A stretch of DNA of 64,000 nt, from contig CANJIU010000009.1 in assembly GCA_947474365.1 (NCBI GenBank), positions 64,457 to 128,456 on the forward strand, read 5' to 3'. Every line of letters starts with the position of its first letter. Position 1 is the first letter of the stretch. Positions 7,419 through 62,740 of this stretch are shown piece by piece. The DNA is from Opitutia bacterium. Lineage in GTDB: Bacteria > Verrucomicrobiota > Verrucomicrobiia > Opitutales > Opitutaceae. The notes beneath the pieces are model-generated. The model made no database searches. It saw nothing but the letters and a program-made list of their open reading frames with translations, and was not told the origin of the DNA. The position numbers were made by a program, and so were the translations under genes.

Positions 7419-7440
7419 GGGAATTTTGCGTCGCGGTGGT

Positions 7441-37982: not shown

Positions 37983-38010
37983 AACGCAGGATCACGTCAC
38001 AACGAGTGGA

Positions 38011-38147
38011 GGGACCAAGAGACCAATGACCAAGAGACCGACAAGCCCCCTCGGCGCATCTCGGTTGCCGCCGTCCCAACGTCTCTTCGTCCCGCGGGAC
38101 CTTGGTCGTTTAGTCCCTTGGTCCCTTCGTCTCTTTGTCGTTTTTTT
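38011..38147. repeat. Nested imperfect inverted repeats (gggaccaag...cttggtccc, and gaccaag...cttggtc) ending in a T7 run. They overlap the start codon region of the next ORF.
   Basis: A1 38011-38019 pairs with B2 38117-38125. A2 38029-38035 pairs with B1 38101-38107. The ttttttt run is at 38141-38147. Confidence 0.55.
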
Positions 38148-38634
38148 ATTGGTCTCCGCTCTCACGTCATCCGCCCATGCGCACGATCCCCATGAAGCGT
38201 TTGCGACGGTCACGCTCCTCCCCGACCGTCTTGAACTGGAGATCACGATGGCGGCGTCCACAGCGCTCAAACTCATCGATCCCGACGGAAAGTTTCCTCC
38301 GCTCCGTCCGGAGAACATTGCCGAACATCGTCCGCGACTGACGCGTGAAGCAGAGCTGCTGTTCATCGTCACTTCTGAACGCAAGCCGCTCAAGCCGCTG
38401 AAGGCCGACCTTGAACTCACTCCGGAAAACGACCTTGTCTTCACCGTGAAGTATCCGCCGCCGACTGCGGGCCGGTTGCTGTTTTCCGCCGCCTTCCTGC
38501 GCCGACTTGGCGAAGGTTACGGAGGAATCATCGAGGTCAACGACCGGCACGGCCAAAACCTCGGATGGGAACAGCTCCAGTGGGCGCAGCCCAACTTCGA
38601 CCTCACGCTGCCTCAAGAAACACCCGCGAGATAA
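38026..38634 (+). CDS. Hypothetical secreted protein
   Basis: ORF with an internal signal-peptide-like segment RLFVVFLLVSALTSSAHA. The start codon is uncertain; the ATG at 38026 lies inside the inverted repeat. No recognisable domain. Confidence 0.4.
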   Translation: MTKRPTSPLGASRLPPSQRLFVPRDLGRLVPWSLRLFVVFLLVSALTSSAHAHDPHEAFATVTLLPDRLELEITMAASTALKLIDPDGKFPPLRPENIAEHRPRLTREAELLFIVTSERKPLKPLKADLELTPENDLVFTVKYPPPTAGRLLFSAAFLRRLGEGYGGIIEVNDRHGQNLGWEQLQWAQPNFDLTLPQETPAR

Positions 38635-40786: not shown

Positions 40787-40962
40787 TCGGGGAAAAAATT
40801 ACCCATCGCCACCTCTCGCTGGCAATCCACAACACCGGACGATCGAACCTCACGATTCACGGCGGAACCTCCCTGCAAAACAGGACTGACAAGCGCCGCC
40901 GTCACCGCGCATCGTTGCGTCCGCAATGCCGGACGCCCGTTAACCCAATCCCCTCCGCCCTC

Positions 40963-42255
40963 ATGAGTTCACTTCCATCTTCGAAACCCGGATCGCCAAA
41001 TCCCACCCGTCGCCACTTCCTTCGTCAACTCGCGGTCGCCGCGACCGCTGCCACCGTGCTGCCCCGCACCTTCGCAGCGCTCCCCAAGGCAAAGATCACA
41101 AAGATCAACATCTATCGCCCGCCGGTCCTCAATCTGCATTTCAACCAGAGCAACATGGTCGTCACGATCGAAACCGATCAGGCCGGACTGATCGGTGTCG
41201 GTGAAGGTGGAGCGCGCGACACGATCGAGCAATGTGCGATGCGGCTAATCGGCCGAAACCCATTCGACATCGAACGCTGCTGGCAGGACATGTACCGCTC
41301 GTGGTTCTACTCGCCCGGACGTGAAAAAATCCACGCGCTCGGCGCCCTCGATCTCGCTCTTTGGGACCTGAAGGGCAAAGCCCTCGGCGTTCCCGTCTAC
41401 GATCTCATCGGCGGGATGAACCGCACCTACCTCGAAACCTATCTCTCCGGCGGCGGCACCGGCACGCAACTGCAGGAACGCGCCCGCGCCACAATCGAGG
41501 CTGGCCACCGCGCGTTCCGGATGGACGCCGCCAGTCCAAACCCAAACGGACCCGTCACCGAGGCGGGGCCGTTGCCCGGTCCGATCTACAACACACACGA
41601 GCGCGTCGGCCAGGTGGCCAAAAACGCGAAGGACGTCCGCATCGGTGTCGGCGAGGCCGGTGACTGGCTGATCGACCTGCATCAGCGTTTCGACTACGCC
41701 GACGCGCTTCGTTGCTGCAAGCTGATCGAGGAATACGCGCCCTATCTCGTCGAGGACCCGACGCGCGACGAACAATTCCGCGACGACATTCCGAAGCTCC
41801 GCAAGATGACCAGCGTGCCGCTCGCCGCGGGCGAGGAATGGGGCCAGCGTTGGGATTTCCACAAGCTCGTTGAAAACAAGGATGTCGATTACGTGCGGTG
41901 CACGCTGCCCAATGTCGGCGGCATCACCGAGATGCTGAAAATCGCCGCGCTCTGCGAGACGCACGCCGTCGGCATCGTGCCGCACTTCACCGGCTCGATC
42001 TCGACCGCCGCGCTGGTGCATGCCCTCGGGCCGTTCTCCGGCCCCGTTCTCGTTGAGATTGGCCAAAACGTGAAACTGCCCGAGCACATCAGCGAAGGCC
42101 TGGATTTCCGGCGCGGCAAGATCTGGCCAACGAGTCGCCCCGGACTCGGCGTCACGCTCAATATGGAGCGGCTCACGCTTGTCACCGCAATTACAGATCC
42201 CGGCACGAAGCGCCCGGTGTTTTTCCGCCCCGATGGGTCGCAGACGAGTTGGTAA
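40963..42255 (+). CDS. Enolase-superfamily enzyme (mandelate racemase / D-galactonate dehydratase-like) with Tat signal peptide
   Basis: Start MSSLPSSKPGSPNPTRRHFLRQLAVAATAATVLPRTFAA (twin-arginine). MR-family capping domain and TIM barrel with a YLVEDP-type metal-ligand block. Confidence 0.75.
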   Translation: MSSLPSSKPGSPNPTRRHFLRQLAVAATAATVLPRTFAALPKAKITKINIYRPPVLNLHFNQSNMVVTIETDQAGLIGVGEGGARDTIEQCAMRLIGRNPFDIERCWQDMYRSWFYSPGREKIHALGALDLALWDLKGKALGVPVYDLIGGMNRTYLETYLSGGGTGTQLQERARATIEAGHRAFRMDAASPNPNGPVTEAGPLPGPIYNTHERVGQVAKNAKDVRIGVGEAGDWLIDLHQRFDYADALRCCKLIEEYAPYLVEDPTRDEQFRDDIPKLRKMTSVPLAAGEEWGQRWDFHKLVENKDVDYVRCTLPNVGGITEMLKIAALCETHAVGIVPHFTGSISTAALVHALGPFSGPVLVEIGQNVKLPEHISEGLDFRRGKIWPTSRPGLGVTLNMERLTLVTAITDPGTKRPVFFRPDGSQTSW

Positions 42256-52017: not shown

Positions 52018-53148
52018 TTGGCGCCGATGTTCTCCAGTTCCCCCAAGTATTCGACGCTCAGCCAGCAGGTGGCGAAGGAATTGGAACAGGCGATCCGCCA
52101 CGGGTTGCTCCGAGAGAGCCTGCCGGGCGAACGCCAGTTGGCCGAAACGATGCAGGTGAGCCGGAGGACCATCCGCGCGGCGACCGAGATCCTGCGGGAA
52201 CGGAAACTCGTGCAGACGGCGCATGGAAGACCAACGCGAGTCGTCGGCGTGCCCCCAGACAGGGACGAACCAGGCCCGATGCGCGTCATCGGCATGCTCC
52301 TGCCAAAACCTCTGGAAGAACTGAAGCCGTACACCACGGTCATCGATCATCTGCGCAGTAGTTTCTACCAAAACGGATACCGGCTGGACCTCCACTTTGG
52401 CCAAAGCTTTCTCTCGCGCCAGCCCGCCGCCGCCCTCCGGCGGCTCATCACGCGATTCCCCTGCGACGCATGGATCCTCACGTCGGCCAGCCGCGCCTGC
52501 CAATCCTGGTTCCACGCGGAGGGCATCATCACAGTGGTGGCTGGCACCGCCCACGACGGGATTCCCCTGCCAGCGGTGGACGTCGACATGTTCGCCACCT
52601 CCCGCCACGCGGCCACGGTCCTCCTGCGAAAAGGGCATCGCCGGATCGCGCTGGTATTGGAGCAATCAGACTGGGCGGGGCATCGCAAAACCGAGGAGGG
52701 CTTTTTCGCCGGCATCCGGCATTTTGGCGAAAACGCCACGGGCCAGCTGCTCCGCCATGGCGGCGACGTCACCGGATTGGAACAAGTGATCGCCCGCGCC
52801 CTGCAGGGACCGGCCGCTCCCACCGCGCTGTTTATTGTCAATCCCTACCACTACCTCGCCGTCGCTTCGATCCTGGCCGAACGCGGCTTGAAAGTACCGC
52901 AGGACATGTCGCTGCTCTGCCGCGACGACGACGTGTGCCTGAACTACCTGCCCGTCCGGCCAAACCGCTACGCCGGCAGCGCGGCGGACAACGCGCGGCA
53001 GATCTTTTCGATCCTGAGCCGCGCCCTGCGCCGCGGCCACACGGAAGAGTCGGCAAAGCCAATCCTGACTTTGCCGAAATTCCTCGAAGGAAAGTCCATC
53101 GCCGCCCCGCGCCCGCCCGGGCCGATGTCGCCAGGAGTCACGGGATGA
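52018..53148 (+). CDS. GntR-HTH transcriptional regulator with LacI/PBP1-type sugar-binding effector domain
   Basis: N-terminal GntR winged HTH (SQQVAKELEQAIRHGLLRESLPGERQLAETMQVSRRTIRAATEIL). C-terminal periplasmic-binding-protein-like fold. Confidence 0.8.
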   Translation: MAPMFSSSPKYSTLSQQVAKELEQAIRHGLLRESLPGERQLAETMQVSRRTIRAATEILRERKLVQTAHGRPTRVVGVPPDRDEPGPMRVIGMLLPKPLEELKPYTTVIDHLRSSFYQNGYRLDLHFGQSFLSRQPAAALRRLITRFPCDAWILTSASRACQSWFHAEGIITVVAGTAHDGIPLPAVDVDMFATSRHAATVLLRKGHRRIALVLEQSDWAGHRKTEEGFFAGIRHFGENATGQLLRHGGDVTGLEQVIARALQGPAAPTALFIVNPYHYLAVASILAERGLKVPQDMSLLCRDDDVCLNYLPVRPNRYAGSAADNARQIFSILSRALRRGHTEESAKPILTLPKFLEGKSIAAPRPPGPMSPGVTG

Positions 53149-53355
53149 GGGTTGTGCCCTTGATCGCCAGGACCGCGCAGGGCATTCACGTCGTGGTTCC
53201 ATTTACACGCTCGCCTGAATTCCTCCGCGGCAGGCGTTCCACCCAGGGCGCCCGGCAGAGGTATCAAAACGGTTCCAGGAGAATTCGCTTCCGCTGGAAA
53301 AACGGGGAAACGAAACTGCGTGACTCCCGGGAGGAATGAGAGCCGTAAAATCCGC

Positions 53356-54174
53356 ATGCCTCCTCAAATCCACCAGAAACTCCGTTTCATGAAGCTCCGC
53401 CCCAGCCGCATCCACCATCGCCTCCGCCAGGGGCACCATCCGGCCGTGCTCAAGCTCAACCTCGCCGACCCACGGGTGGTCGAATTGGCCTGCCTCGCGG
53501 GAACCGATGCACTCTGGTTTTGCATGGAACACGTGCCAGTCGACTGGCTGGCGCTGGAGGGACTGATCCGGGCCGCTCGCATCTACGACGTGGATACGTT
53601 GGTCCGGGTTGCCCGCGGCAGCTACAGCGATTACCTGCGTCCACTTGAGGCGGGTGCCACCGGCATCATCGTCCCCCATGTCGGCACACCGGAGGAGGCC
53701 CGGCAGATTGTGGAATGGGTGCGGTGTCATCCGCTCGGAAAGCGTCCGATGGACGGAGGCAACGTGGACGGTCAGTTCTGCCAGGTACCGCTGACGGACT
53801 ATATCCGCCATGCCAACAGCGAGCGGCTGATCGTCCTGCAGATCGAGTCACCCGAGGCACTGGACCGGGTGGAGGCGATCGCCGCCGTCCCCGGGTTCGA
53901 CATGCTGCTCTTCGGCCCAGGTGACTTCAGCTGCCGAATCGGCAAACCCGGCGAGCTTGATGCCCCGGAAGTTGTCGCGGCGCGGAAACGCGTTGCGTCC
54001 GCGGCGCGCCAGCACGGCAAGCATGCGATGACGGCCGGGCTCATTGCGCCGTTTGCCGACCTGCTCGCCGAAGGACACCGGGTGTTCAACATCGGCGCCG
54101 ATGTGATCGGACTCGGGGGATATTTTCACCAGCGCGTCGCCGCCTTCGGCCAGATGGTGGCAACAGGCTCCTGA
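53356..54174 (+). CDS. HpcH/HpaI-family aldolase (2-keto-3-deoxy sugar acid aldolase, KDR/KDGluc aldolase-like)
   Basis: Motifs LKLNLADPRVVELACLAGTDALWFCMEH and IVPHVGTPEEARQIVEWVRCHPLGKR. The start codon is uncertain (53320, 53356 or 53389). Confidence 0.75.
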   Translation: MPPQIHQKLRFMKLRPSRIHHRLRQGHHPAVLKLNLADPRVVELACLAGTDALWFCMEHVPVDWLALEGLIRAARIYDVDTLVRVARGSYSDYLRPLEAGATGIIVPHVGTPEEARQIVEWVRCHPLGKRPMDGGNVDGQFCQVPLTDYIRHANSERLIVLQIESPEALDRVEAIAAVPGFDMLLFGPGDFSCRIGKPGELDAPEVVAARKRVASAARQHGKHAMTAGLIAPFADLLAEGHRVFNIGADVIGLGGYFHQRVAAFGQMVATGS

Positions 54175-54509
54175 AGGAAACTTCCGCGGCTCTGGATTGC
54201 TCACTTGCCGCCGGCAACGCCGATTCCCGCGTCGCTCGTTTTTGCGTCAGGTTCCGCCCAACCCCAAGCTCACCCGGGCCCAGTGCCGCCGGTGGCCGCC
54301 ATTGCCGTCCCAATCGTTTTCCAAGGGCGTCGTGTGCTCCGCGCTTTCGACCAGGCTCACGGCGCGCCTCCGGCCGCGGGAGTGCTTGCGAAGGCTGATC
54401 GGATCCTGCCGCAGCTTGTTAGCCAGTTTGACCAGGCGCCCAATCCCGCTCAACTCCAAGGTCTGATCTGGAGCGAACCTCCGCCGCCAGGCCGTCACTT
54501 TTTTCGGAC

Positions 54510-55520
54510 ATGAAATTTTCACTCAGTCACATCGCGTATCTTGGCCTCGGCGGATTGTTCGCCGCCGCCTTGCTACCGATATCCGCCTTCGCTGCACCCA
54601 CCTCCGCCTGGCAACGCTTGGCCCCTTTGCCGGTCGGCAACGGCGGGTTTGTCAGCGCAGCGCTTGGTGGAAAAATCTTCATCGCCGGCGGCACGAACTG
54701 GAACGACGACACAAAATCGTGGCTCGACCAAATCTGGGCCTACGACCCGGCGCGCGACAGCTGGCAGGAAACCGGCCATCTGCCGGCCGCCCTGGCCTAC
54801 GCCGTAACGGGAACAGAAGGGGGAGCTTTGTGGTTCGCCGGAGGCAGCAGCGGAACGGCCACCCATTCGGTCTTGTGGAAAATGGAAGCGGGCGGCGCGG
54901 TCCGGCGCGTCGCAGCACTCGATATCGGATTCGTCTATGCGTCTGGGGCGGTCATCGGAACAAATCTATACTCAGTCGGCGGAAGCGACGATCAGGCCAA
55001 ACTTCAGCGCGTCACCAACGCCTTTCACGCCATCAACCTCACGACTGGTGTCATCACCCGGCTCGCGAACTATCCCGAGGCCGGACTCGCCACCGGCACC
55101 GCGGCCACCATCGGGGACCGGCTCTACGTTTTCGGCGGTGCGCGATGGGACCAGGCGAAGTCGACCGTGGTGAACCATTCCGCCGCGCATGTCTACTCAA
55201 CCGCCACGAAGACCTGGACCGCCCTGCCGCCACTTCCCCATCCGGGCCGTGGGATAACCGCGGTCAAACTCGACGCGCGGCACATTCTGATCGCTGGTGG
55301 CTATCGCAACGACGAGGTCGAATTCGTACGCGACGCCTGCGTTTACGACATCCAAACCGGAATCTACACTGCGACGTCGCCCCTGCCCTACGCCGCGATG
55401 GTCGCTTTGGTGCAAAGCGGTGACTGGCTCTACTGTCTCGGCGGCGAAGATCGCAAGAAGCACCGCACTGACGCGGCCTATCGCATCCGGTGGCGGGAAT
55501 TGCTCGGGCCGCAATCCTGA
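54510..55520 (+). CDS. Secreted Kelch-repeat beta-propeller protein, N-acetylneuraminate mutarotase (NanM/YjhT)-like
   Basis: Signal peptide MKFSLSHIAYLGLGGLFAAALLPISAFA. Repeated Kelch-like blades (GGKIFIAGG, GALWFAGG, NLYSVGG, RLYVFGG, ILIAGG, WLYCLGG). About 336 aa. Confidence 0.7.
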   Translation: MKFSLSHIAYLGLGGLFAAALLPISAFAAPTSAWQRLAPLPVGNGGFVSAALGGKIFIAGGTNWNDDTKSWLDQIWAYDPARDSWQETGHLPAALAYAVTGTEGGALWFAGGSSGTATHSVLWKMEAGGAVRRVAALDIGFVYASGAVIGTNLYSVGGSDDQAKLQRVTNAFHAINLTTGVITRLANYPEAGLATGTAATIGDRLYVFGGARWDQAKSTVVNHSAAHVYSTATKTWTALPPLPHPGRGITAVKLDARHILIAGGYRNDEVEFVRDACVYDIQTGIYTATSPLPYAAMVALVQSGDWLYCLGGEDRKKHRTDAAYRIRWRELLGPQS

Positions 55521-55549
55521 ACCGGCGTAACGGCAGACGGGCGGGAGTC

Positions 55550-57208
55550 TCAGTCGCGGTCGTAACCGATGCTCAGAACAACGTCCTGAAGCTTCAGGTC
55601 CGGCCCCGAGTCGTTTCGGGAGACTTCGATCCGGTTGGCGCCCCGCTTAAGCTGGGTTGCCTCAATCCGGAAGTCGGCCCAGCCCTCAACGGATTCGGCC
55701 GGGGGCAATGTCGCCCCATTGAGAGTCACGACCAGCGCCTTCACCTCTGCCAACCGGGGAAGATCCAAATGCAGACGGGCCTCCACCTTGCGTCCCGTTA
55801 TTGCGGGGGAGGTGAGGTCGTCGCCAAATTCCAACGTGGTGGCGTACGTCTCGGAGCGGCGCAGGGTCGCGGGGCGCGCCGGCACCAGAATCGGAATGGT
55901 CTGGTGGGCGGTGCCTCCAACAAGCCAGGAGTTCGGGCTGCCATCCAAATCCGTGACAAAGTAAAGTTTTCGCGTCGGGGCGAGCGCCACCGGATCCCCC
56001 AGCTCGCGCCACAGGGGCGATTCGCGATTAATGTCGTAGAGATTGAACACGTAGAGACCGTCCGCGCCGGCCGCCCAAGCCTTTGCCGCCCGCCCACGGT
56101 AGGCCTCGACCGAGGCCCGCTTGAAGCGCGTCTCCTTCAGCACCCGCGGGTCCGTAAGGCTTGGATACACGGGAACGTTGTACCGGTGGCCGAGCTGCAC
56201 GCCATATTCCCACGGGTTGAGGCGGAAATAGTCGGTCAACGCGACGAGGTCGATCAGCCCCGCGGAGAGCCAAGCCTCAAGGTCGAGCCCCAGGTCGCGA
56301 CAGAAACCGACCGAGTCCGGCACCCGAATTAGCGTGAGGATCGGGCGGCCGCGCTGCAAACCGACCTCCTCCGTCATGACTCGCACGCGACGCATGAGGT
56401 CCGTCATCTCGGTTCGTTCCCGATCACTCGCCCGGCCGCCGTGCGCCGTGCTGGGGAAGTAGCAAAGGTGCCGGAAAAAATCGAGATCCACCCCGTCGAC
56501 GTCATAGCCACGGCAGACCTCCTCAAGGTAGCTGAAGGCAAGCTCACGCACTTCCGCGCGGCCATAGTTTACGGAGCTCCAACGGCCGAACTTGGAACGT
56601 TGCGTGGGATTGCCCACAAGCCAGTCAGCGTGCGCCTCTTTGAGCGGTGGAAAGAGGAAATACGGCTTCTGCGGCGTGTGCGCCACGTCGTGGGTGTCGT
56701 TCATGCGCATCGACCAAAACGCTTCCATGCCGTTCGCGCGCGCGTACGTGCTCACGAGCCGGAGGGTGTCAGTGCCCTGCGCGATCAAGTCGCCCGTGAT
56801 GTTCCGCCGCTGCGGCTGGATGCCGTAGTCAGCTCCCTGCCGGGTGAGGATTTCACCCGCGGAGGTCCGGTGCGTAAAGAAACCGAATCCGGAACTGATC
56901 GTGCAATAGGCAACTGCGTCGACCTGCGAGCCCCGCAGCCCGGTCGTGCGCCGGTTGAGAAACCCCTCGGGCGTGACGGGGAGGTCACTCGGATAGTAGA
57001 GCGCGTCGCAACCGTCGTTGTTGGCGATCAGGCGGCGCGGCGCATGCGCCTGCTTCGACCGGGCGGCGCGGAGTTCCGCCAGGGTCGTGATGCGGGAAGC
57101 GGTCGCAGTTTCCGCTGGAACGGCGGCGCGCGCTGTCGAGGCAGGAGTCAACAGCCCAGCGCCCGCGAGCAAAACGGTCCGAACGAGACGCAAACTGGGA
57201 ACAAGCAT
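55550..57208 (-). CDS. Secreted TIM-barrel glycoside-hydrolase-like protein (GHL10/DUF4015-like). Function unknown.
   Basis: Signal peptide. 552 aa. Product call tentative. Confidence 0.5.
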   Translation of the reverse strand: MLVPSLRLVRTVLLAGAGLLTPASTARAAVPAETATASRITTLAELRAARSKQAHAPRRLIANNDGCDALYYPSDLPVTPEGFLNRRTTGLRGSQVDAVAYCTISSGFGFFTHRTSAGEILTRQGADYGIQPQRRNITGDLIAQGTDTLRLVSTYARANGMEAFWSMRMNDTHDVAHTPQKPYFLFPPLKEAHADWLVGNPTQRSKFGRWSSVNYGRAEVRELAFSYLEEVCRGYDVDGVDLDFFRHLCYFPSTAHGGRASDRERTEMTDLMRRVRVMTEEVGLQRGRPILTLIRVPDSVGFCRDLGLDLEAWLSAGLIDLVALTDYFRLNPWEYGVQLGHRYNVPVYPSLTDPRVLKETRFKRASVEAYRGRAAKAWAAGADGLYVFNLYDINRESPLWRELGDPVALAPTRKLYFVTDLDGSPNSWLVGGTAHQTIPILVPARPATLRRSETYATTLEFGDDLTSPAITGRKVEARLHLDLPRLAEVKALVVTLNGATLPPAESVEGWADFRIEATQLKRGANRIEVSRNDSGPDLKLQDVVLSIGYDRD

Positions 57209-57237
57209 GATCAGAATGGAATTTGCGGCACGGTCGG

Positions 57238-59490
57238 TCAGCGTCCACTCCCGGCCAGCGTGTTCGGCACCGACCAGCGAAGGCGCGCCAGATAGGCCGG
57301 CCCACTCTTGACTGTGCTCGCCACGGTGATCCAGGTCTCGTCCTCGCTGATCGCCGCCGCATCAAAGTTGCCAATATCCACGCCGCGCTCCGGCACCGCC
57401 ACCTGCTCGGTACCGCGCATCACGTGGAGTTTCTCGGGATCGACCCGCGCGATGAACAGCGGCGCGCGATGGCGCGGGATGTGGTCGTTGTTTGCTCCCC
57501 GCCGCGTATAAACCAAAAAAAGTCCCTCGCTGTGCGTCACCCACTTTTGATGGGTGTTATAGCTGCCAAGGTCGGAGCCGTCATCAAAGGTCCACGCCTT
57601 GACCGGCCCGAAGTTCAATCCGTCCTCGCTCACCGCGACGTACCCTTTCTGGTCGTTGCGAATCGTCAGGTAGTAGCGTCCTTGAAACCGGGTGATCGAT
57701 TTCTCGTAGAGGCCGCGCGGCACCTCGTGCGTCAGCTCCCGTCCGGCTCCGACGAACCGCAGTTCGCCGCCCTCAAATTTCATCCGCGCCACCGCGCCGC
57801 GGAAGGAGAATTTCCACTTCGCATCCGCCACCCCGGGCCCGACCGCATAAAAGGGAACCAGCAGCGAGCCGTCCCGCTCCACCAGCCATTGCCCGTGCAC
57901 CCCGTTGATGAAGTACCGGTCGTCCGGATGCGCCGGCAACGGGAGGATTTTCCACGGGGTCCATTTGTCCGTAACGGGATCGTAGCTGATCCACGCGGTA
58001 TCGCGGCGGTCGCCCATGCCGCCGAAACCTTTTTTTGTATACCGTACCGTGTGCCCGATGCCAATCACCCGGCGGGACGGTGCGTGCCAGCCAAGCGTGA
58101 TGTCGCAGACGCCCATGTTCGACTCGGGATCAAGCGGGCGCCAGTCGAGCCCCGGATCCAGTCGCGGCGCCGTCCACGTCCGCCCAACGTCGTCACTGCG
58201 CAGCGTGCTCAGGCCGGAGAAAAAATCGCTGCCGATCGCCCGCTGAATCGTCATCACCACCCGCGGCGCGCCGCCCGCACTCGGAATCGCAACCGCGCGG
58301 GGTTGAAACCAGCTGCCGCCCTCGGTCGCGGCCGGCAGCATTTCTCTGACGTCCAGCGTGTACGTCAGCGCCGCCCCGCCCTCCCGCCGAAGCTCATCCA
58401 AAGTCAGATTGATCACCCCCAGGTGGTATCGCTGGTGCGCGGGAATTCCATCGGCGTAGTACGACACGAGGATCCGGCCGCCGGGCATCTCGACCGCGTC
58501 GGGGTAACCGCAATCGCCGGTTTCGAGCGCCACCAGGCGCTGCGGTTTGGTCCACGTCCGGCCTCCGTCCCCGCTGGTGCGGGCATCGATCCCGCGATCA
58601 CCCGGCGTGCGGTTGCCGTAGGTCAGCAGGACGCGTCCGTCGCTCAATTTGAGGAGATGCGCCGACGAAACCGGCTTCACCCCGAGCGTCGTCACAGGCC
58701 GCCAGGTGAACGCGTCGTCGTCGGACGCGAAAATTTCGAGGTCGAGATGTTCGAAACGCCGGCTCGCGGCCAGCCAGCGCCCGCCGCCGAGGTGCAGCAT
58801 CGCCGCCTCCACATGCCGGTCCTTGACGATCGGGGCGAAATGCTTCCACGTGCGGCCGCCATCCCGGCTGCGCGCAGCATAGATGTTTCCCGTCTTCGGC
58901 TTCGTGAACGCGTAGGTGCCGGCGACCAAGTCACCGTTCGCCGCCAATTGAATGTCGCCGAACGGCACCTGCCAGCTCAGGCCCTCCACCGCCGGCAGTA
59001 CCGGACCCAATTGCTCCCAGGTTTTCCCGCCGTCGCGGGAAATCGCCCCGACCGTCTGAATCGTCCTGCTCTCGGCGTTGCGGCGCGGCGCAATCTTGTC
59101 CCAGCCGTTGCACAGCACGACGAGATCGCCGTCCGCATTCAGTCCGGCTCCATGGTTCATGCGCACCGTTTCCGGCGCGTGACGCGTGACCGTGCTCAGG
59201 TATTTCCAAAATCGCCTGTCCGCGCTGCCCCAGCACTCGACGTCCCCCTCGGTGAAACCGTGATTCGGCTGATTGAACACGATCGCAACCAGCGAGCCGT
59301 CCCGCAGGGCCACCACGTTCGGCCAGGCGCACACGTTGTCGATCGCGACCAGACGCCGTGGTATTCCCCCGGCCTGCAGGCTCGCCGGCACCTGGTCCGG
59401 CAATCCGGCCGGCAGCCCCGCGCCCAACGCGCGGCCAAGGCACATGACGATCAATCCGCGGCGTATCGCCCGCAGGAAAACGCGCTTCAT
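57238..59490 (-). CDS. Tandem BNR/Asp-box sialidase-like (BNR_2) glycoside hydrolase
   Basis: Start MKRVFLRAIRRGLIVMCLGRALGAG (ATG 59490). Asp boxes SRDGGKTWEQL, SRDGGRTWKHF, SGDGGRTWTKP and SDDVGRTWTAP. Two propeller-like halves. Its start codon lies 1 bp after the TBDR stop, on the same strand. Confidence 0.75.
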   Translation of the reverse strand: MKRVFLRAIRRGLIVMCLGRALGAGLPAGLPDQVPASLQAGGIPRRLVAIDNVCAWPNVVALRDGSLVAIVFNQPNHGFTEGDVECWGSADRRFWKYLSTVTRHAPETVRMNHGAGLNADGDLVVLCNGWDKIAPRRNAESRTIQTVGAISRDGGKTWEQLGPVLPAVEGLSWQVPFGDIQLAANGDLVAGTYAFTKPKTGNIYAARSRDGGRTWKHFAPIVKDRHVEAAMLHLGGGRWLAASRRFEHLDLEIFASDDDAFTWRPVTTLGVKPVSSAHLLKLSDGRVLLTYGNRTPGDRGIDARTSGDGGRTWTKPQRLVALETGDCGYPDAVEMPGGRILVSYYADGIPAHQRYHLGVINLTLDELRREGGAALTYTLDVREMLPAATEGGSWFQPRAVAIPSAGGAPRVVMTIQRAIGSDFFSGLSTLRSDDVGRTWTAPRLDPGLDWRPLDPESNMGVCDITLGWHAPSRRVIGIGHTVRYTKKGFGGMGDRRDTAWISYDPVTDKWTPWKILPLPAHPDDRYFINGVHGQWLVERDGSLLVPFYAVGPGVADAKWKFSFRGAVARMKFEGGELRFVGAGRELTHEVPRGLYEKSITRFQGRYYLTIRNDQKGYVAVSEDGLNFGPVKAWTFDDGSDLGSYNTHQKWVTHSEGLFLVYTRRGANNDHIPRHRAPLFIARVDPEKLHVMRGTEQVAVPERGVDIGNFDAAAISEDETWITVASTVKSGPAYLARLRWSVPNTLAGSGR

Positions 59491-59491
59491 G

Positions 59492-62400
59492 TTAAAACTC
59501 CCCCCGCAGGCCAAGCACATACTCGATGCCGTTGTCCCGATACTGGGTCGGACGGACATAGTCCGGCGCTCCCGGCGAGTAGGTCATGTTCCGATACAGC
59601 GCATTGGAAAGGTTCTGGCCGGACAGATGCAATGTCAGGCGCCGGGTCACGCGGTATTCGAGCGAACCCCCGACCAGGGTCCGCGGCGCCAGGCTCGTGT
59701 AGGTGCCGGCCGGGGTCGTGGCGTTGGCCGCCACCACGGCATTGCGCGGGCCGTTCGAATTCGTGACATTCACCTTCACCGCGAAGTTCGACCGGGCAAA
59801 CGAGGCGCCCCAGTTGACGATGCGCGTCGAATAACCCGCAAAGTTATCCGCCCCGGCGCCGCCCAGGCGCAAATGGGTGCCGTTGACAAACACGCCGAAC
59901 GACCGGGCCCACGTCGGCAACGCCGCGAACGGGCGAAACGACTGCCGCCAGCTCCACTCCAATCCGTCGATCACCGCGCTGTTCGCCGAGTTCTCCCGGG
60001 TGATGATCTCGTAGTCGCCGGTCAGCAGATCCGCCGGCAGCCCGTATTGCTCCAGCAGCGCCTGCGACGCGGGAATGCGGACCGAAGTGAAAAAACCCGT
60101 GATCTCCTTGCGAAAAGCGCTAACCGAAAAGGTCGCGCCCTTGTACTCGTAAGACTCGAGCGTCAGGTCGTAGTTGTCCGCCGTCCACGGTTTCAATCCC
60201 GTGTTGACCACCGTAATCGTGCGGGGCGCCACCGAGGGATCCGAAATCGACGTGCCGGGCGTGATGAAACTGAGATCCGGCCGGCCAATCGTCCCGGCAT
60301 AGGCGGCGCGCAGGACGAAGTTCGTCCCGAGGTTGTAGCTGGCATTTACGCTCGGATAGAAATCCTGGTACGTTTTTTCGGTGAACGCCGCGCGCTCCTT
60401 GAACTGCAGTTTCGCGAGCGCCAGTGCATCGGTCGTGATCAGGGTCGGACGCCCGTTGCTCCCGAGCGCAACCCGGCCCGCCGCGTCCTTCACGTAGGTG
60501 TTGCGGATGTCGTTGAGCGGCCCGAGCCCCTCGTCCGCGGTGTGCTCAAAACGGACCCCGGCGACAATCCACAGCCGGTTCTCCAGCGCTTTGACGTCGG
60601 TGCGCACGTAGCCGGCCGAGATGGTCTCATCCAGTTTCTTGGAGTTGTTGACCCGGTTCGTGTAGGCCGCCGAGTCGTTCAGCTGAAACCAGTCGGCATG
60701 CTGGCGGTACAGGTCATAGAGCTTGGTCGTGCTCAGCCAGTTCACCTTGAGGCCGCCATTGTACGATCGCCGCGCCGAATAGGAATCGGCACCCAGGTCG
60801 TAGGCGCCGACGAGCTGCCCGCCCGCGGCCGCCGGCGGCCGAAAGTTCCACGACAGGCTCTCCGTCCAGTTGTCGCGTTCCGTCTTCTCGACGGAAACGC
60901 CGGCCTTGAGCGTGAGCGGCAGCGCGGTGGCAAAGGTCCGGGTGGCGTTGGCCGCCGCCGCCCCGACCACGTTTTTGAAAAACATCCGGCCGCTCGCAGC
61001 GGTGTTGAGCGTGTATTGCCGAACATCGTACGGGTCGACGGCCGCCCCCGTGCGCGACTTCACCGTGAGGCGCGGCATCGTCATCGATCCGATGCCGTCG
61101 AGGCCCTGCGCCGACACCACCACGTTGGAGAGCGTCGCGGCCATCGTGCCAAAGGTCCCCTCGTCCACGTCGCTGAACAGGCGGCGCGCCTCCGAGTAGG
61201 ACGTCACCCAGTCAAACTTCCACTGGTCGCCCGCATAGGTGTGGCTGATCCGGCCGTTGAGCAGGCGCCGGTACTGGTTGATATTCTGGCCCGCCGTCAC
61301 CCCGAGGCTGCCGACGCCGGCGGCGGGGCCGTCCGTGAACTTCTCGCCGCCGGTCGCACCCGCGCCAAAATTGTAGCTGAAGACATTCTGGCGCGTATAC
61401 GCGTCCTGGAGCGACAGGTCGAAACGCGCCCGGAAAATGCTCCGGCCCGTCTTCCAGTCGGCGCCGACCGCCGCGATGTCCTTGGTGAAGATATTGATGA
61501 CGGAATTCAGCGTCCCCGATGTCTGGACCAGGCGCACGCGGTCCCAGGTCGGCGAGATATATTCGCGATCCTGATACCGCGCGTTGTGGGCGAGGTTGAA
61601 GGTGAATGCCAGCGCCGGGTTGACCGGCCGGCTGTAGCTCAAGTCGAATCCCGGCTGCACCGGCCGCATCGTCGTCTTGGCGTCCGTGCCGGCATACGGG
61701 TGGATTCCGTGGGGCAGGTTTTCCTGCCCGCCCTTGGCCTGGAGCGTCGCGAAGAAGTTGTAGCGGAACAACGGTGTGCTCCGATTGAATCCGCTCTTCG
61801 ACACCATGTTGATCGACCCGCCGACGGCGTTCGCCGGCAGATCCGGCGTGGGGACCTTCGTCACCTCGATGCGATCGAGATTTGCGGTGCTCGTGCCGCT
61901 GAAATTGTAGGCGCGCGACGCCGGGTCGTTGCTGGCGGCCTGCGCGCCGTCGAACATCACGAGCGTGCCACTCGACGACATGCCGCGCAGCCCGATGCCC
62001 TCCACCTCCCCGGTGGTGTTGTAGACGTTGCTCACTCCCGGGACGTAAGTGAGAAAATGACCGGGATTCGTGATGCCCAAATCGCCAAATTCCTCCATCG
62101 ACACGACGTTCTTGATGTTGGCCGCACTGCGTTGCTCGTGCAGTGCACTGCCCTGGGCCGTCAGTTCGCGCTCCTCCACTGTGAAGGCGGCGAGACGTAC
62201 GATGCCGGAGCCATCCTTCGACTGGCCGTCGAGCGACAACTCCATGTCCACCCGCACGGTCTGTCCGGCGCCAACGGTGACCACTCTCGACTGCGAGCCG
62301 AGACCGGTGAACGAGATCGTGAGCTCCGCACTGCCCGCCGGGACCGACGCCAGACGGAACGCACCGTTTTCATCCGTCGCCGCCTCGGTGTTCAGGCCTT

Positions 62401-62575
62401 TGACCGTCACCCGCGCATTATGGAGATAGTTGCCGCTGGTCGCGTTCAGCACGGTGCCTTGGATCACACCCGTACTCGCCCCCTGGCCGGACAAGGAAAC
62501 GGCGGCGGCTAGGGCGGACAGGCAGGCCAGCACTGGACGCCAGAGGGAACGGATCGGCAAGCAGGAGACGTTCAT
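59492..62575 (-). CDS. TonB-dependent receptor with CarbopepD_reg N-terminal domain
   Basis: Signal peptide MNVSCLPIRSLWRPVLACLSALAAAVSLSGQ. CarbopepD_reg region (VIQGTVLNATSGNYLHNARVTVKGLN). Plug and barrel. C-terminal ...LGLRGEF. 1027 aa. Confidence 0.9.
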   Translation of the reverse strand: MNVSCLPIRSLWRPVLACLSALAAAVSLSGQGASTGVIQGTVLNATSGNYLHNARVTVKGLNTEAATDENGAFRLASVPAGSAELTISFTGLGSQSRVVTVGAGQTVRVDMELSLDGQSKDGSGIVRLAAFTVEERELTAQGSALHEQRSAANIKNVVSMEEFGDLGITNPGHFLTYVPGVSNVYNTTGEVEGIGLRGMSSSGTLVMFDGAQAASNDPASRAYNFSGTSTANLDRIEVTKVPTPDLPANAVGGSINMVSKSGFNRSTPLFRYNFFATLQAKGGQENLPHGIHPYAGTDAKTTMRPVQPGFDLSYSRPVNPALAFTFNLAHNARYQDREYISPTWDRVRLVQTSGTLNSVINIFTKDIAAVGADWKTGRSIFRARFDLSLQDAYTRQNVFSYNFGAGATGGEKFTDGPAAGVGSLGVTAGQNINQYRRLLNGRISHTYAGDQWKFDWVTSYSEARRLFSDVDEGTFGTMAATLSNVVVSAQGLDGIGSMTMPRLTVKSRTGAAVDPYDVRQYTLNTAASGRMFFKNVVGAAAANATRTFATALPLTLKAGVSVEKTERDNWTESLSWNFRPPAAAGGQLVGAYDLGADSYSARRSYNGGLKVNWLSTTKLYDLYRQHADWFQLNDSAAYTNRVNNSKKLDETISAGYVRTDVKALENRLWIVAGVRFEHTADEGLGPLNDIRNTYVKDAAGRVALGSNGRPTLITTDALALAKLQFKERAAFTEKTYQDFYPSVNASYNLGTNFVLRAAYAGTIGRPDLSFITPGTSISDPSVAPRTITVVNTGLKPWTADNYDLTLESYEYKGATFSVSAFRKEITGFFTSVRIPASQALLEQYGLPADLLTGDYEIITRENSANSAVIDGLEWSWRQSFRPFAALPTWARSFGVFVNGTHLRLGGAGADNFAGYSTRIVNWGASFARSNFAVKVNVTNSNGPRNAVVAANATTPAGTYTSLAPRTLVGGSLEYRVTRRLTLHLSGQNLSNALYRNMTYSPGAPDYVRPTQYRDNGIEYVLGLRGEF

Positions 62576-62740
62576 GATGAATTCGGTTTGGACTGCATCC
62601 GGACTTCGCCCGGGTCGAGGGTCCGGAAGAAAGGGTGAATCGGGTGGAGAAAGCTTCGCCGCCCACGCTGAAATCAGAAGCGAATTTTTCTGGCCACATT
62701 ACGATACCAGTGCCCCTCTTTCTCAGGCAAGGGCGCCGCG

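What the first reader, a model, noticed from the sequence alone, without database searches (positions are those of the whole stretch)
52018..62575. Polysaccharide-utilization-like locus combining a NanM-like Kelch mutarotase, a tandem BNR sialidase-like enzyme, an HpcH aldolase, a GntR/LacI regulator and a TBDR
Gene order:
- Plus strand: GntR-PBP regulator, HpcH/HpaI aldolase, secreted Kelch protein.
- Minus strand: GH-like TIM barrel, tandem BNR_2 sialidase-like enzyme, TBDR.

NanM-like mutarotases and BNR sialidase-like enzymes normally work with DapA-family Neu5Ac lyases, yet the aldolase here is HpcH-type (a 2-keto-3-deoxy sugar-acid aldolase). Two readings are possible. The locus may process a different nonulosonic, KDO or KDN-like or deoxy-sugar substrate. 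Alternatively the locus belongs to the rhamnogalacturonan theme seen elsewhere in the window (CE12 esterase, PL11 lyase), with a KDR aldolase.
Basis: inference. Interest (0 to 1): 0.6.

Follow-up and report, generated by a model that had tools for sequence, protein, structure and literature searches.

The report
Sialic-acid-like sugar harvesting locus, unusual aldolase
A soil or freshwater Verrucomicrobium (family Opitutaceae) carries a compact gene cluster that looks built to import glycans capped with a sialic-acid-like keto-sugar acid, clip that sugar off with two unrelated kinds of sialidase-type enzyme, and split it with a metal-dependent aldolase rather than the usual sialic acid lyase; the route has not been described, but the actual sugar is unknown.

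Summary
All six genes are present at the stated coordinates with the stated domains.

- **The "GH-like TIM barrel"** is related to GH156, the inverting exosialidase family. It keeps that family's His acid and its Arg/Arg/Asn carboxylate clamp. The Asp base is inferred from a motif.
- **The BNR protein** really is two sialidase-fold propellers. The N-terminal one keeps a GH33-like Glu/Tyr pair.
- **The Kelch protein** is a cyclically permuted relative of NanM. The NanM catalytic Glu and Arg are invariant across 58 homologues.

The aldolase is a true class II HpcH enzyme, but it is not an equivalog of HpaI, GarL or RhmA.

Related Opitutaceae loci keep a core of regulator, aldolase, TonB-dependent receptor (TBDR) and the C-type propeller. 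The GH156-like gene, the N-type propeller and the Kelch gene come and go. HpcH aldolases from two other subfamilies sit directly beside GH156-like genes in two other Verrucomicrobia.

My best reading is a harvesting and cleavage locus for a 2-keto-3-deoxy sugar acid (ulosonic acid), probably not Neu5Ac. The rhamnogalacturonan reading is not supported, because the PL11 lyase lies 14 kb away behind unrelated genes.

The main caveat is that close homologues of the aldolase usually sit in oxidoreductase operons without sialidase-like genes, so the substrate remains open. I rate it a new variant of a known kind, of moderate interest.

The parts
52018..53148 (+). Transcription regulator with an N-terminal GntR winged-helix domain and a C-terminal LacI/PBP-type sugar-binding domain (AraR-type architecture). 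The gene caller on the source contig starts it at 52027.
   Evidence: Pfam GntR 1.6e-11 and Peripla_BP_3 1.5e-13. No NCBIfam equivalog is reached. Homologues of 59% identity (L086) and further GntR + Peripla_BP_3 regulators (L169, L171) sit next to the same TBDR and aldolase.
53282..53291 (+). Copy 1 of the 10-mer AATTCGCTTC, about 100 bp upstream of the aldolase start. Tentative shared operator or promoter element.
   Evidence: The 10-mer occurs only twice in the 64 kb window. Both copies lie about 100 bp upstream of an operon start and point the same way relative to the downstream gene. This is a post hoc observation and was not tested for conservation.
53389..54174 (+). Cytoplasmic class II (metal-dependent) pyruvate aldolase of the HpcH/HpaI family, 261 aa, with no signal peptide.
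   Evidence: Pfam HpcH_HpaI 3e-26. The best solved relatives are 4TV5 (2-dehydro-3-deoxyglucarate aldolase, 3e-28), HpaI, YfaU and GarL, and the EH, Arg, Glu and Asp active-site motifs align. E47, H48, R73, E153 and D179 are invariant in 25 homologues. It scores far below the NCBIfam cutoffs for HpaI, GarL and RhmA.
54510..55520 (+). Secreted six-bladed Kelch propeller. It resembles the NanM (YjhT) sialic acid mutarotase but belongs to the cyclically permuted type.
   Evidence: Pfam NANM 62 bits (cutoff 45) plus Kelch families. The E. coli NanM motif GEAKPGLRTDA (E228/R234) aligns with GEDRKKHRTDA (E313/R319). E313 and R319 are 2 of only 13 invariant columns among 58 homologues of 27-51% identity. 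The N-terminal signal peptide is read directly from the sequence.
55550..57208 (-). Secreted (beta/alpha)8-barrel protein related to GH156 inverting exosialidases. Candidate ulosonic-acid glycosidase.
   Evidence: phmmer hit to PDB 6RZD (EnvSia156) at 7e-16; family profile 9e-24. R168, H173, R246 and N389 align with EnvSia156 Arg129, His134, Arg202 and Asn346 and are invariant in 26 homologues. The invariant NNDGCD motif (D65...Y71) has the same spacing as Asp14...Tyr20.
57238..58332 (-). C-terminal ('C-type') sialidase-fold six-bladed propeller of the 750-aa tandem protein. It has one Asp-box (SDDVGRTW).
58336..59490 (-). Signal peptide plus the N-terminal ('N-type') BNR_2 sialidase-fold propeller of the tandem protein. 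It has four Asp-boxes.
   Evidence: Pfam BNR_2 2.4e-22. PDB 5HX0 2e-10 and GH33 sialidases. For the full-length model (pLDDT 86) the Foldseek top hits are 5HX0, the PA2794 pseudaminidase and GH33. E228, R244 and Y329 align with the Glu, Arg and Tyr of B. thetaiotaomicron sialidase 4BBW, and together with R294 they are invariant or nearly so in 16 homologues. The Arg of the GH33 'RIP' motif is absent; the sequence there is AWP.
59492..62575 (-). TonB-dependent outer-membrane receptor with an N-terminal carboxypeptidase-regulatory-like domain. First gene of the minus-strand operon.
   Evidence: Pfam CarboxypepD_reg, Plug and TonB_dep_Rec_b-barrel. TIGR01782 TonB-Xanth-Caul scores 252 bits against a cutoff of 310. 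73% identical receptors lie in the related loci L006 and L086.
62677..62686 (-). Copy 2 of the 10-mer AATTCGCTTC (read on the minus strand), about 100 bp upstream of the TBDR start.
   Evidence: Tentative.

Best explanation
The locus belongs to an Opitutaceae (Verrucomicrobiota) bacterium. It harvests and cleaves a 2-keto-3-deoxy sugar acid (ulosonic acid) that caps or decorates an environmental glycan.

Proposed sequence of events (all steps are inferred, none was assayed):
1. The TBDR imports an oligosaccharide into the periplasm.
2. Two secreted enzymes of unrelated folds release the terminal ulosonic acid. One is the tandem sialidase-fold protein; its N-type domain has a GH33-like Tyr/Glu pair and so probably retains configuration. 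The other is the GH156-like barrel; its Asp/His dyad suggests it inverts configuration.
3. The periplasmic Kelch protein, like NanM, speeds interconversion of the anomers, so that an inner-membrane transporter encoded elsewhere receives the form it accepts.
4. In the cytoplasm the class II HpcH aldolase takes the place of the class I lyase NanA. It splits the open-chain keto acid between C3 and C4 into pyruvate and an aldose or aldehyde-acid.
5. The AraR-type GntR/PBP regulator senses a sugar and controls both convergent operons.

The sugar is more likely a non-amino ulosonic acid (KDN, Kdo, Dha or a relative) than Neu5Ac. No genes for handling ManNAc are present, and the residues that hold the Neu5Ac glycerol tail in EnvSia156 are replaced throughout this family.
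For: **Shown by tool results**
- GH156 relationship: E = 7e-16 and 9e-24. The His acid and the Arg/Arg/Asn carboxylate clamp are aligned and invariant.
- Both halves of the 750-aa protein have the sialidase fold. The N-type domain keeps Glu, Tyr and two Arg.
- The NanM Glu/Arg motif is present and invariant in 58 homologues.
- The aldolase has the HpcH catalytic residues.
- The three hydrolase or mutarotase proteins have signal peptides; the aldolase and the regulator do not.

**Linkage**
- Regulator, aldolase, TBDR and the C-type propeller recur together in L171, L086 and L169. TBDR, aldolase, GH156-like and N-type BNR_2 propellers recur in L006.
- HpcH aldolases only 27-34% identical to this one, and only 33% identical to each other, lie beside GH156-like genes in L007 and L008. 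In L007 the two genes overlap by 4 bp. This indicates independent recruitment.
- BNR_2 genes lie near 7 of 45, and Kelch genes near 4 of 45, long metagenome loci that carry close homologues of the aldolase. With the window and L006 added, BNR-linked aldolases number 9 on the tree.

**Inferred**
- The order of steps and the cell compartments.
- A non-amino substrate. EnvSia156 residues N15, S16 and Y135 contact O7-O9; the residues in their place here are G66, C67 and D174, which are invariant in the family.
- No nanA, nanE or nanK in the locus or among the window ORFs scanned.
Against: - The aldolase belongs to a tight subfamily (60-80% identity) that is widespread in Verrucomicrobia. Its usual operon is TBDR | GntR-FCD | GFO/IDH/MocA | DUF455-like | GFO-like | aldolase | three SDRs | AKR, with no sialidase-like gene within 10 kb in most loci. 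That pattern also fits an oxidative neutral-sugar pathway.
- About 70 of roughly 75 loci fetched for GH156-like relatives share none of the other five genes.
- A relative with an 80% identical GH156-like gene (P0006) pairs the harvesting genes with MFS, amidohydrolase, GFO and aminotransferase genes and has no HpcH aldolase. The aldolase is therefore not an obligatory partner.
- The locus has no inner-membrane transporter and no downstream genes.
- The Asp14 equivalent rests on motif spacing, not on an alignment.
- One Arg of the GH33 triad is missing in the N-type domain. The catalytic residues of the C-type domain could not be mapped.
- The Kelch protein scores far below the NCBIfam cutoffs for NanM (71 against 416) and for the permuted family (59 against 243).
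- No activity was measured.
Confidence: 0.55

Rival explanations
1. This is an ordinary Neu5Ac sialoglycan locus. The sialidase-type enzymes release Neu5Ac, NanM-like mutarotation follows, and the canonical nanA, nanE and nanK genes lie elsewhere in the genome. The HpcH aldolase is either a redundant Neu5Ac lyase or is unrelated.
For: All solved relatives of the hydrolases act on Neu5Ac-type substrates: EnvSia156 and GH33. NanM is a Neu5Ac mutarotase. Only 64 kb of the genome was seen.
Against: The locus and the window ORFs scanned contain no class I lyase, epimerase or kinase. The residues that bind the glycerol tail in EnvSia156 are replaced. The aldolase is the conserved partner in relatives. 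The source is an environmental Opitutaceae bacterium, not a host-associated one.
Confidence: 0.1
2. This is a deoxy-sugar or neutral-sugar locus. The aldolase cleaves a 2-keto-3-deoxy aldonate such as L-KDR or L-KDF, made by dehydrogenase, lactonase and dehydratase genes elsewhere. The propellers and the barrel remove rhamnose-, fucose- or arabinose-type residues from pectin-like glycans.
Against: PL11 is 14 kb away, behind unrelated genes. The GH156-like protein keeps the clamp for a carboxylate on the anomeric carbon. The N-type propeller keeps the sialidase Tyr/Glu pair and two Arg. A NanM-type mutarotase is known only for sialic acid. The conserved operons contain no recognisable dehydratase or lactonase.
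Confidence: 0.13
3. This is a mosaic rather than a pathway. The minus-strand operon (TBDR, propellers, GH156-like) and the plus-strand genes (regulator, aldolase, Kelch) merely converge here and serve different substrates.
For: The orientation is convergent, with separate promoters. The GH156-like, Kelch and N-type propeller genes are each absent from some related loci. Most loci fetched for either family show no co-occurrence.
Against: The core of regulator, aldolase, TBDR and C-type propeller is kept through several rearrangements, including co-directional TBDR-aldolase-GFO-propeller in L086. HpcH and GH156-like genes are immediately adjacent in two other lineages. The two promoter regions share a 10-mer (weak evidence).
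Confidence: 0.08

Closest known systems
E. coli sialic acid accessory system nanCMS / nanXY with nanA (OM channel NanC, periplasmic mutarotase NanM, class I lyase NanA)
   Same: It has the same logic: an outer-membrane entry protein, a periplasmic Kelch-propeller mutarotase with the same Glu/Arg motif, and a cytoplasmic pyruvate-releasing aldolase as the first catabolic step.
   Different: - The entry protein is a TBDR, not a porin.
- The mutarotase is cyclically permuted and scores below the curated family cutoffs.
- The aldolase is a class II metal-dependent HpcH enzyme, not the class I DapA-family NanA.
- There are no nanT, nanE or nanK genes.
- The GFO/IDH/MocA enzyme found in relatives shows only generic 21-27% similarity to NanY.
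GH156 inverting exosialidase EnvSia156 (PDB 6RZD/6S00; PMC6254351, PMC6811678)
   Same: The (beta/alpha)8 catalytic core is homologous (E = 7e-16; profile 9e-24). The RMNDxH motif carrying Arg129 and His134, together with Arg202 and Asn346, is conserved. An N-terminal Asp...Tyr motif is probably conserved too.
   Different: - Identity is only about 25-30% over roughly 300 residues, and the N-terminal 100 residues do not align.
- The O8/O9-binding residues Asn15 and Ser16 and the O7-binding Tyr135 are replaced by Gly, Cys and Asp.
- The protein belongs to a separate, large clade from the PVC group and Armatimonadota (more than 897 proteins; most are about 718 aa and carry an extra C-terminal domain that this protein lacks).
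- CAZy membership was not tested.
GH33 sialidases, KDNases and the PA2794 pseudaminidase, plus the uncharacterised BNR_2 protein Dfer_1899 (PDB 5HX0)
   Same: Both domains have the six-bladed propeller fold. The N-type domain has Asp-boxes, the Glu/Tyr pair and two Arg.
   Different: - Two propellers are fused in one chain.
- The N-type domain lacks the Arg of the RIP motif.
- The C-type domain has one Asp-box, falls below the Pfam threshold, and its catalytic residues are not mapped.
- The nearest solved protein, 5HX0, has no known function.
Bacteroides thetaiotaomicron RG-II degradation (GH143 Dha hydrolase BT1020; Kdo and Dha side chains)
   Same: That system also releases small ulosonic acids (Dha, Kdo) from a plant glycan using a sialidase-like propeller with a Tyr/Glu pair (as described in PMC6811678; RG-II side chains in PMC12282258).
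HpcH-family sugar-acid aldolases (HpaI, GarL, RhmA/YfaU)
   Same: The fold and the catalytic Arg, Glu and Asp metal site are shared. All of them cleave 4-hydroxy-2-keto acids to pyruvate plus an aldehyde, which is the chemistry needed for any ulosonic acid.
   Different: Scores of 79-101 bits fall far short of the equivalog cutoffs of 369-441. The enzyme forms its own Verrucomicrobial subfamily. Its genomic partners are sialidase-type genes or oxidoreductases, not aromatic, glucarate or rhamnonate pathway genes.

Membership tests
GH156 (inverting exosialidases) | Significant sequence similarity to the EnvSia156 catalytic barrel | tested here: met
   phmmer 7e-16 over query residues 155-455; profile 9e-24.
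GH156 (inverting exosialidases) | Carboxylate-binding Arg129/Arg202/Asn346 and the His134 acid | tested here: met
   R168, R246, N389 and H173 are aligned and are invariant in 26 homologues.
GH156 (inverting exosialidases) | Catalytic base Asp14 | tested here: inconclusive
   The N-terminus does not align. The invariant D65...Y71 pair has the same spacing as D14...Y20. A structural superposition is needed.
GH156 (inverting exosialidases) | CAZy/dbCAN family assignment; exosialidase activity with inversion of configuration | not testable with these tools
   No dbCAN model and no assay were available.
GH33 sialidase (N-type domain) | Six-bladed propeller with Asp-boxes; Pfam BNR_2 above threshold | tested here: met
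   BNR_2 scores 80 bits against a cutoff of 31.4. There are four Asp-boxes. Foldseek hits are 5HX0 and GH33.
GH33 sialidase (N-type domain) | Tyr nucleophile with a Glu partner | tested here: met
   E228 and Y329 align with the Glu and Tyr of 4BBW. Y329 is invariant and E228 is at least 90% conserved.
GH33 sialidase (N-type domain) | Complete arginine triad, including the RIP-motif Arg | tested here: not met
   R244 and R294 are present. The RIP position reads A-W-P. R110 might substitute, but this was not shown.
GH33 sialidase (C-type domain) | Sialidase propeller fold | tested here: met
GH33 sialidase (C-type domain) | Catalytic Tyr/Glu/Asp and the Arg triad | tested here: inconclusive
   No usable sequence alignment was obtained: phmmer and hmmsearch against PDB gave nothing, and hhalign against the N-type profile gave 79% probability over 63 columns. 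Many Arg, Glu and Tyr residues are invariant, but none is mapped.
NanM / YjhT sialic acid mutarotase | Secreted six-bladed Kelch propeller | tested here: met
   Kelch Pfam families; NANM 62 bits against a cutoff of 45; a signal peptide is visible.
NanM / YjhT sialic acid mutarotase | Catalytic Glu and Arg (E. coli E228/R234 of the precursor; that these are the catalytic residues is from my memory of Severi et al. 2008) | tested here: met
   GE-x5-RTDA aligns with the NanM motif. E313 and R319 are invariant in 58 homologues.
NanM / YjhT sialic acid mutarotase | Curated family score (NCBIfam PRK14131, TIGR03547, or the permuted family TIGR03548) and colinearity with NanM | tested here: not met
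   Scores are 71.5 against 416, 65.9 against 256 and 59 against 243. The motif lies at the C-terminus here but mid-protein in NanM, so the protein is cyclically permuted.
HpcH/HpaI class II aldolase | Pfam family score, catalytic Arg and the Glu/Asp metal ligands | tested here: met
   92 bits against a cutoff of 25. The residues align with 4TV5 and HpaI. R73, E153 and D179 are invariant.
HpaI, GarL or RhmA equivalogs | NCBIfam equivalog cutoffs | tested here: not met
   101 against 369, 100 against 393 or 407, and 79 against 441.
Canonical nan (Neu5Ac) catabolic cluster | Class I lyase NanA plus NanE/NanK or AGE, and a sialic acid transporter | tested here: not met
   None was found among the locus or window ORFs scanned. 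The rest of the genome was not seen.
Rhamnogalacturonan utilisation locus | Contiguity with RG lyases or esterases and rhamnose catabolic genes | tested here: not met
   PL11 lies at 36015-37982, 14 kb away, with unrelated genes in between. The related loci contain no RG genes.
Bacteroidota-type PUL | SusC/SusD pair | tested here: not met
   A TBDR is present but there is no SusD-like gene.

The most novel reading that the evidence does not exclude
The HpcH enzyme is a dedicated ulosonate aldolase for a non-amino ulosonic acid. It could, for example, be the gene for 3-deoxy-D-manno-octulosonate (Kdo) aldolase, EC 4.1.2.23, which to my knowledge is an orphan activity, or a Dha or KDN aldolase. 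On the same reading, the GH156-related PVC clade (more than 897 proteins) and the C-type propeller family would be new Kdo-, Dha- or KDN-releasing glycosidase families. Together they would define the first genetically described route by which environmental Verrucomicrobia mineralise plant, algal or bacterial ulosonic acids.
Probability: 0.2. Interest if true: 0.75.

Novelty: new variant of a known kind. Interest (0 to 1): 0.55.

Why it matters
**Ulosonic acid turnover.** Ulosonic acids (sialic acids, KDN, Kdo, Dha, pseudaminic and legionaminic acids) are common in plant pectin, algal scales and bacterial surfaces. Outside host-associated Neu5Ac metabolism, their breakdown is almost unknown. 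This locus offers a testable candidate: a class II aldolase in place of NanA. It is repeatedly linked to sialidase-fold and GH156-like enzymes in Verrucomicrobia.

**Uncharacterised enzyme families.** The work flags a large GH156-related clade and a propeller family invisible to Pfam as candidate new glycosidase specificities. GH156 currently has only sialidase activity assigned.

**A practical starting point.** A cultured relative (Horticoccus) carries the core locus, so experiments are feasible.

Tried and rejected
1. **Gene neighbourhoods of 80 genome loci fetched with the GH156-like family profile**. Most share nothing with this locus. Recurrent neighbours are sulfatases (14 loci), GFO/IDH/MocA genes (12) and BNR_2 genes (10). 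The family as a whole is therefore not tied to an aldolase.
2. **Naming the oxidoreductases of the aldolase subfamily's usual operon with NCBIfam**. Only generic names came back, so no pathway could be assigned.
3. **Orthology of the relatives' GFO/IDH/MocA gene to E. coli NanY (YjhC).** Rejected: only generic Rossmann-fold similarity of 21-27%.
4. **Sequence-level classification of the C-terminal half.** phmmer and hmmsearch against PDB gave nothing meaningful, and hhalign against the N-type profile was weak. Only structure prediction resolved it.
6. **Literature searches** for HpcH aldolase with sialic acid, for Kdo aldolase genes, and for GH156 with Kdo or KDN in Verrucomicrobia. No description of such a pathway turned up. 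The library is open-access only, so absence is weak evidence.
7. **A shared operator.** One 10-mer is shared by the two upstream regions. The match was found post hoc, about 0.8 chance matches of the 12-mer screen were expected, and conservation in relatives was not established. It is recorded as a lead only.
Not found among the ORFs I scanned.
9. **Residue-level structural superposition.** Not possible, because model coordinates are not exposed.

Full report
**Observation**

The window has 64% G+C, so many shadow ORFs appear. Pfam and NCBIfam confirm the domain calls:
- a GntR HTH plus Peripla_BP_3 regulator (52018-53148, +);
- an HpcH_HpaI aldolase (+), whose real start is most likely 53389, giving the 261 aa called on the source contig;
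- a secreted Kelch protein (54510-55520, +);
- a 552-aa protein with only a faint GHL10 hit (55550-57208, -);
- a BNR_2 protein (57238-59490, -);
- a TBDR with a CarboxypepD_reg domain (59492-62575, -).

The plus- and minus-strand sets converge at 55520/55550, and the TBDR stop overlaps the BNR start. The window is identical to part of a 138-kb ENA metagenome contig. Beyond the TBDR lie only small ORFs, a PALP enzyme and a PMT_2 protein, so the locus ends there. The closest named relatives are Opitutaceae: Horticoccus sp. for the BNR protein at 78% identity, and an Opitutaceae MAG.

**The TIM barrel is GH156-related**

phmmer against PDB sequences gives one real hit. It is EnvSia156, the founding GH156 inverting exosialidase (6RZD), at E = 7e-16. 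A profile of 26 homologues raises this to 9e-24.

The EnvSia156 papers define five key residues: an Asp14 base, a His134 acid, and an Arg129/Arg202/Asn346 carboxylate clamp (PMC6811678). Mann et al. used the same five as the criterion for members that act on sugars carrying a C1 carboxylate.
- In the alignment, R168, H173, R246 and N389 occupy the positions of Arg129, His134, Arg202 and Asn346. The RMNDxH motif is identical. All four residues are invariant in the family alignment.
- The N-terminal 100 residues do not align. However, the invariant NNDGCDxLY motif places D65 and Y71 six residues apart, as Asp14 and Tyr20 are. This equivalence is inferred, not shown.
- The EnvSia156 residues that hold O7-O9 of the glycerol tail (Asn15, Ser16, Tyr135) correspond here to Gly66, Cys67 and Asp174, which are fixed across the family. 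That hints at a different exocyclic group.

The family is large: at least 897 proteins at 50-62% identity in Verrucomicrobiota, Planctomycetota, Lentisphaerota, Armatimonadota and WS1. Most members are about 718 aa and carry an extra C-terminal domain that this protein lacks. They are annotated at best as 'family 10 glycosylhydrolase'.

**The BNR protein is two sialidase-fold propellers**

*N-type domain.*
- Pfam finds BNR_2 only in the N-terminal half.
- The best PDB sequence hit is the uncharacterised Dfer_1899 (5HX0), followed by GH33 sialidases.
- In the alignment to the B. thetaiotaomicron sialidase 4BBW, E228, R244 and Y329 (numbered from the 59490 start) match the catalytic Glu, an Arg of the triad and the Tyr nucleophile. 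Together with R294, which lies where the last triad Arg would sit, they are invariant or nearly so in 16 homologues.
- The Glu-to-Arg spacing of 16 residues equals the spacing I recall for the Micromonospora sialidase (from memory).
- The RIP-motif Arg is missing; the sequence there is AWP.

*C-type domain.*
- It has no Pfam or PDB sequence match and only a blade-level hhalign match to the N-type profile. It carries one Asp-box.
- AlphaFold models of the whole protein (pLDDT 86) and of the C-terminal half (pLDDT 81, pTM 0.86) are all-beta.
- For the C-terminal half, the top 38 Foldseek hits are GH33 sialidases.
- Its catalytic residues could not be mapped.
- The domain also exists as stand-alone proteins of 413-452 aa, one of which NCBI calls exo-alpha-sialidase.

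'Tandem sialidase-like' is therefore correct.

**The Kelch protein is NanM-like but permuted**

PDB sequence hits are generic Kelch proteins, and the NCBIfam scores are far below the NanM cutoffs. BLAST against E. coli NanM, taken from the K-12 genome, aligns NanM GEAKPGLRTDA with GEDRKKHRTDA.

The NanM Glu228 and Arg234 of the precursor equal Glu209 and Arg215 of the mature protein. I recall these as the residues shown by mutagenesis in Severi et al. 2008. They correspond to E313 and R319 here. The motif lies at the C-terminus here but mid-chain in NanM, which fits the 'cyclically permuted mutarotase' family.

An exhaustive HMMER search followed by an alignment of 58 single-domain homologues at 27-51% identity shows only 13 invariant columns. 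E313 and R319 are two of them.

**The aldolase**

It is a genuine class II pyruvate aldolase. The catalytic Arg and the Glu/Asp metal ligands align with 4TV5, HpaI, YfaU and GarL and are invariant. It reaches no equivalog cutoff. It has no signal peptide.

It belongs to a tight subfamily that is abundant in Verrucomicrobia: more than 120 cluster representatives at 65-95% identity.

**Context in the window**

The PL11 rhamnogalacturonan lyase (36015-37982) is real. It is separated from the locus by a TPR histidine kinase, an enolase-superfamily protein similar to galactonate or mannonate dehydratases, two beta-lactamase-fold proteins, a HlyD/MacB ABC exporter and a thioredoxin-PDZ protein. No paralogues of the locus genes occur elsewhere in the window, apart from a second TBDR.

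**Comparative loci**

*Close relatives.*
- L169 (GH156-like 77%): TBDR, tandem propeller and GH156-like on one strand, facing an HpcH fragment and the GntR/PBP regulator. No Kelch gene.
- L171: TBDR and the C-type propeller alone, facing HpcH (77%) and the GntR/PBP regulator.
- L086 (Horticoccus-like): regulator, then TBDR, HpcH, GFO/IDH/MocA and the tandem propeller. No GH156-like or Kelch gene.
- L006 (Opitutaceae MAG): two TBDRs, four BNR_2 propellers, a GH156-like gene, HpcH (61%) and two GFO/IDH/MocA genes.
- The locus of P0006 (GH156-like 80%): BNR_2, TBDR, a 447-aa protein and GH156-like, facing Kelch, MFS, a 314-aa protein, Amidohydro_1, GFO, Aminotran_3 and DeoR. It has no HpcH aldolase.

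The conserved core is therefore regulator, aldolase, TBDR and C-type propeller. The GH156-like gene, the N-type propeller and the Kelch gene are exchangeable add-ons. The harvesting genes can also be paired with a different catabolic set, one that looks suited to an amino sugar.

*More distant relatives.* In two Verrucomicrobiaceae MAGs, HpcH aldolases of other subfamilies lie directly beside GH156-like genes. They are 27% and 34% identical to this aldolase and 33% identical to each other. In L007 the two genes overlap by 4 bp. In L008 the aldolase lies 680 bp from one GH156-like gene and abuts another GHL10 gene. If a genome holds a few HpcH genes among several thousand genes, immediate adjacency would be expected in roughly 0.1 of 75 loci. 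This is my estimate, not a computed statistic.

*Evidence against.*
- About 70 of roughly 75 loci fetched for GH156-like relatives share no other gene with this locus.
- Of 45 long metagenome loci that hold close homologues of the aldolase, only 7 have an N-type BNR relative and 4 a Kelch relative.
- The usual setting of the aldolase subfamily is TBDR | GntR-FCD | GFO | DUF455-like | GFO-like | aldolase | SDR x3 | AKR. These enzymes receive only generic names.
- On a neighbour-joining tree, the window aldolase sits inside this single subfamily, with BNR-linked members scattered across it.

**Mechanism**

The most economical reading is as follows.
1. The TBDR takes up an oligosaccharide.
2. The periplasmic tandem propeller and the GH156-like barrel release a terminal ulosonic acid. 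They would use two different mechanisms and perhaps act on two linkages or anomers.
3. The NanM-like protein equilibrates the anomers. NanM does this in the E. coli periplasm, where the inner-membrane carrier takes the beta-anomer (PMC8141875).
4. An unlinked transporter imports the sugar.
5. The class II aldolase cleaves it into pyruvate and an aldehyde.

Any ulosonic acid is already a 4-hydroxy-2-keto acid. That explains why a compact locus needs no dehydrogenase or dehydratase ahead of the aldolase.

Which sugar is involved remains open. KDN, Kdo or Dha would yield mannose, arabinose or a tetruronate respectively. The oxidoreductase-rich operons of the aldolase subfamily could process such products. 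None of this was tested.

**Comparison and novelty**

The system works like the E. coli NanC/NanM/NanA arrangement and like GH33/GH156 sialoglycan foraging. It nevertheless fails the membership tests for NanM equivalogs, for a complete GH33 triad, for HpaI/GarL/RhmA equivalogs and for a nan cluster.

I found no paper that links HpcH aldolases to sialic acid or Kdo catabolism. The library is open-access only.

I rate the locus as a new variant of a known kind, with interest 0.55. The functional theme is well supported. The substrate and the role of the aldolase are plausible but unproven.

Noticed in passing
window 53282-53291 (+) and 62677-62686 (-): The 10-mer AATTCGCTTC occurs only twice in the 64-kb window. 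Each copy lies about 100 bp upstream of an operon start (aldolase and TBDR) and points the same way relative to the downstream gene. In 2.3 Mb of fetched loci it occurs otherwise only in L050 and L120; L120 carries a homologue of the aldolase. It may be an operator for the GntR/PBP regulator.
   Followed up: partly
locus of P0006 (ENA ERZ1426853, 43.7-kb contig; no DNA available): A relative with an 80% identical GH156-like gene has the order BNR_2, TBDR, a 447-aa protein and GH156-like, facing Kelch, MFS, a 314-aa unknown protein, Amidohydro_1, GFO/IDH/MocA, class III aminotransferase and DeoR. It has no HpcH aldolase. Deacetylase, oxidoreductase and aminotransferase together suggest catabolism of an N-acetylated amino ulosonic acid. 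This may be an undescribed route.
   Followed up: partly
L122:3300-14996, L166, L110 and about 30 other metagenome loci: A conserved Verrucomicrobial operon surrounds close homologues of the aldolase: TBDR (~736 aa) | GntR-FCD | GFO/IDH/MocA (337 aa) | DUF455-like (441 aa) | GFO-like (331 aa) | HpcH aldolase | three SDRs (the first in the glucose 1-dehydrogenase subfamily) | AKR | an unknown 225-aa protein. Some loci also have an SSF transporter. I could not assign a pathway.
   Followed up: partly
family of window 55550-57208 (P0001-P0120; L004-L085): The GH156-related family is large and well conserved (50-62% identity) across Verrucomicrobiota, Planctomycetota, Lentisphaerota, Kiritimatiellota, Armatimonadota and WS1. 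Most members are about 718 aa and have an extra C-terminal domain of about 170 aa that the window protein lacks. Frequent neighbours are sulfatases (14 loci), GFO/IDH/MocA genes (12) and BNR_2 genes (10).
   Followed up: partly
homologues P0152, P0155, P0160, P0167-P0172, P0180, P0185, P0193: The N-type BNR_2 propeller is often fused to other modules in relatives. These include SMP-30/gluconolactonase-type lactonase domains, subtilase (Peptidase_S8) domains, and in one case a sulfatase plus SGNH hydrolase.
   Followed up: no
window 53145-53339 (+): A 64-aa ORF overlaps the regulator stop by 4 bp and lies just upstream of the aldolase. It is called as a gene on two assemblies (L001, L002). A 78-aa ORF occupies the equivalent position in L169. 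It has no Pfam hit and may be spurious in this GC-rich DNA.
   Followed up: no
window 23264-25900: This is the segment of lowest GC in the window (0.59, against about 0.64). It holds an HNH endonuclease (23264-24067, -) followed by about 1.8 kb with only short ORFs that have no Pfam hits. It may be a remnant of a mobile or defence element.
   Followed up: no
window 36015-38634 and 40741-42255: The PL11 rhamnogalacturonan lyase is confirmed (776 bits). The enolase-superfamily protein is nearest to galactonate and mannonate dehydratases (185 bits against a cutoff of 311). Its Pfam match begins only at residue 126 of the ORF as drawn, so the true start may lie later.
   Followed up: partly
window 4304-10533 (-): Two large proteins typical of the PVC group lie upstream of a second TBDR (10541-13513). 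One is an 861-aa protein with Ig-like domains. The other is a 1030-aa protein combining DUF7133, HEAT repeats and cytochrome c. A sulfatase (2829-4292) and a polysaccharide pyruvyl-transferase-like gene (1246-2727) are nearby. This may be a separate glycan locus.
   Followed up: no
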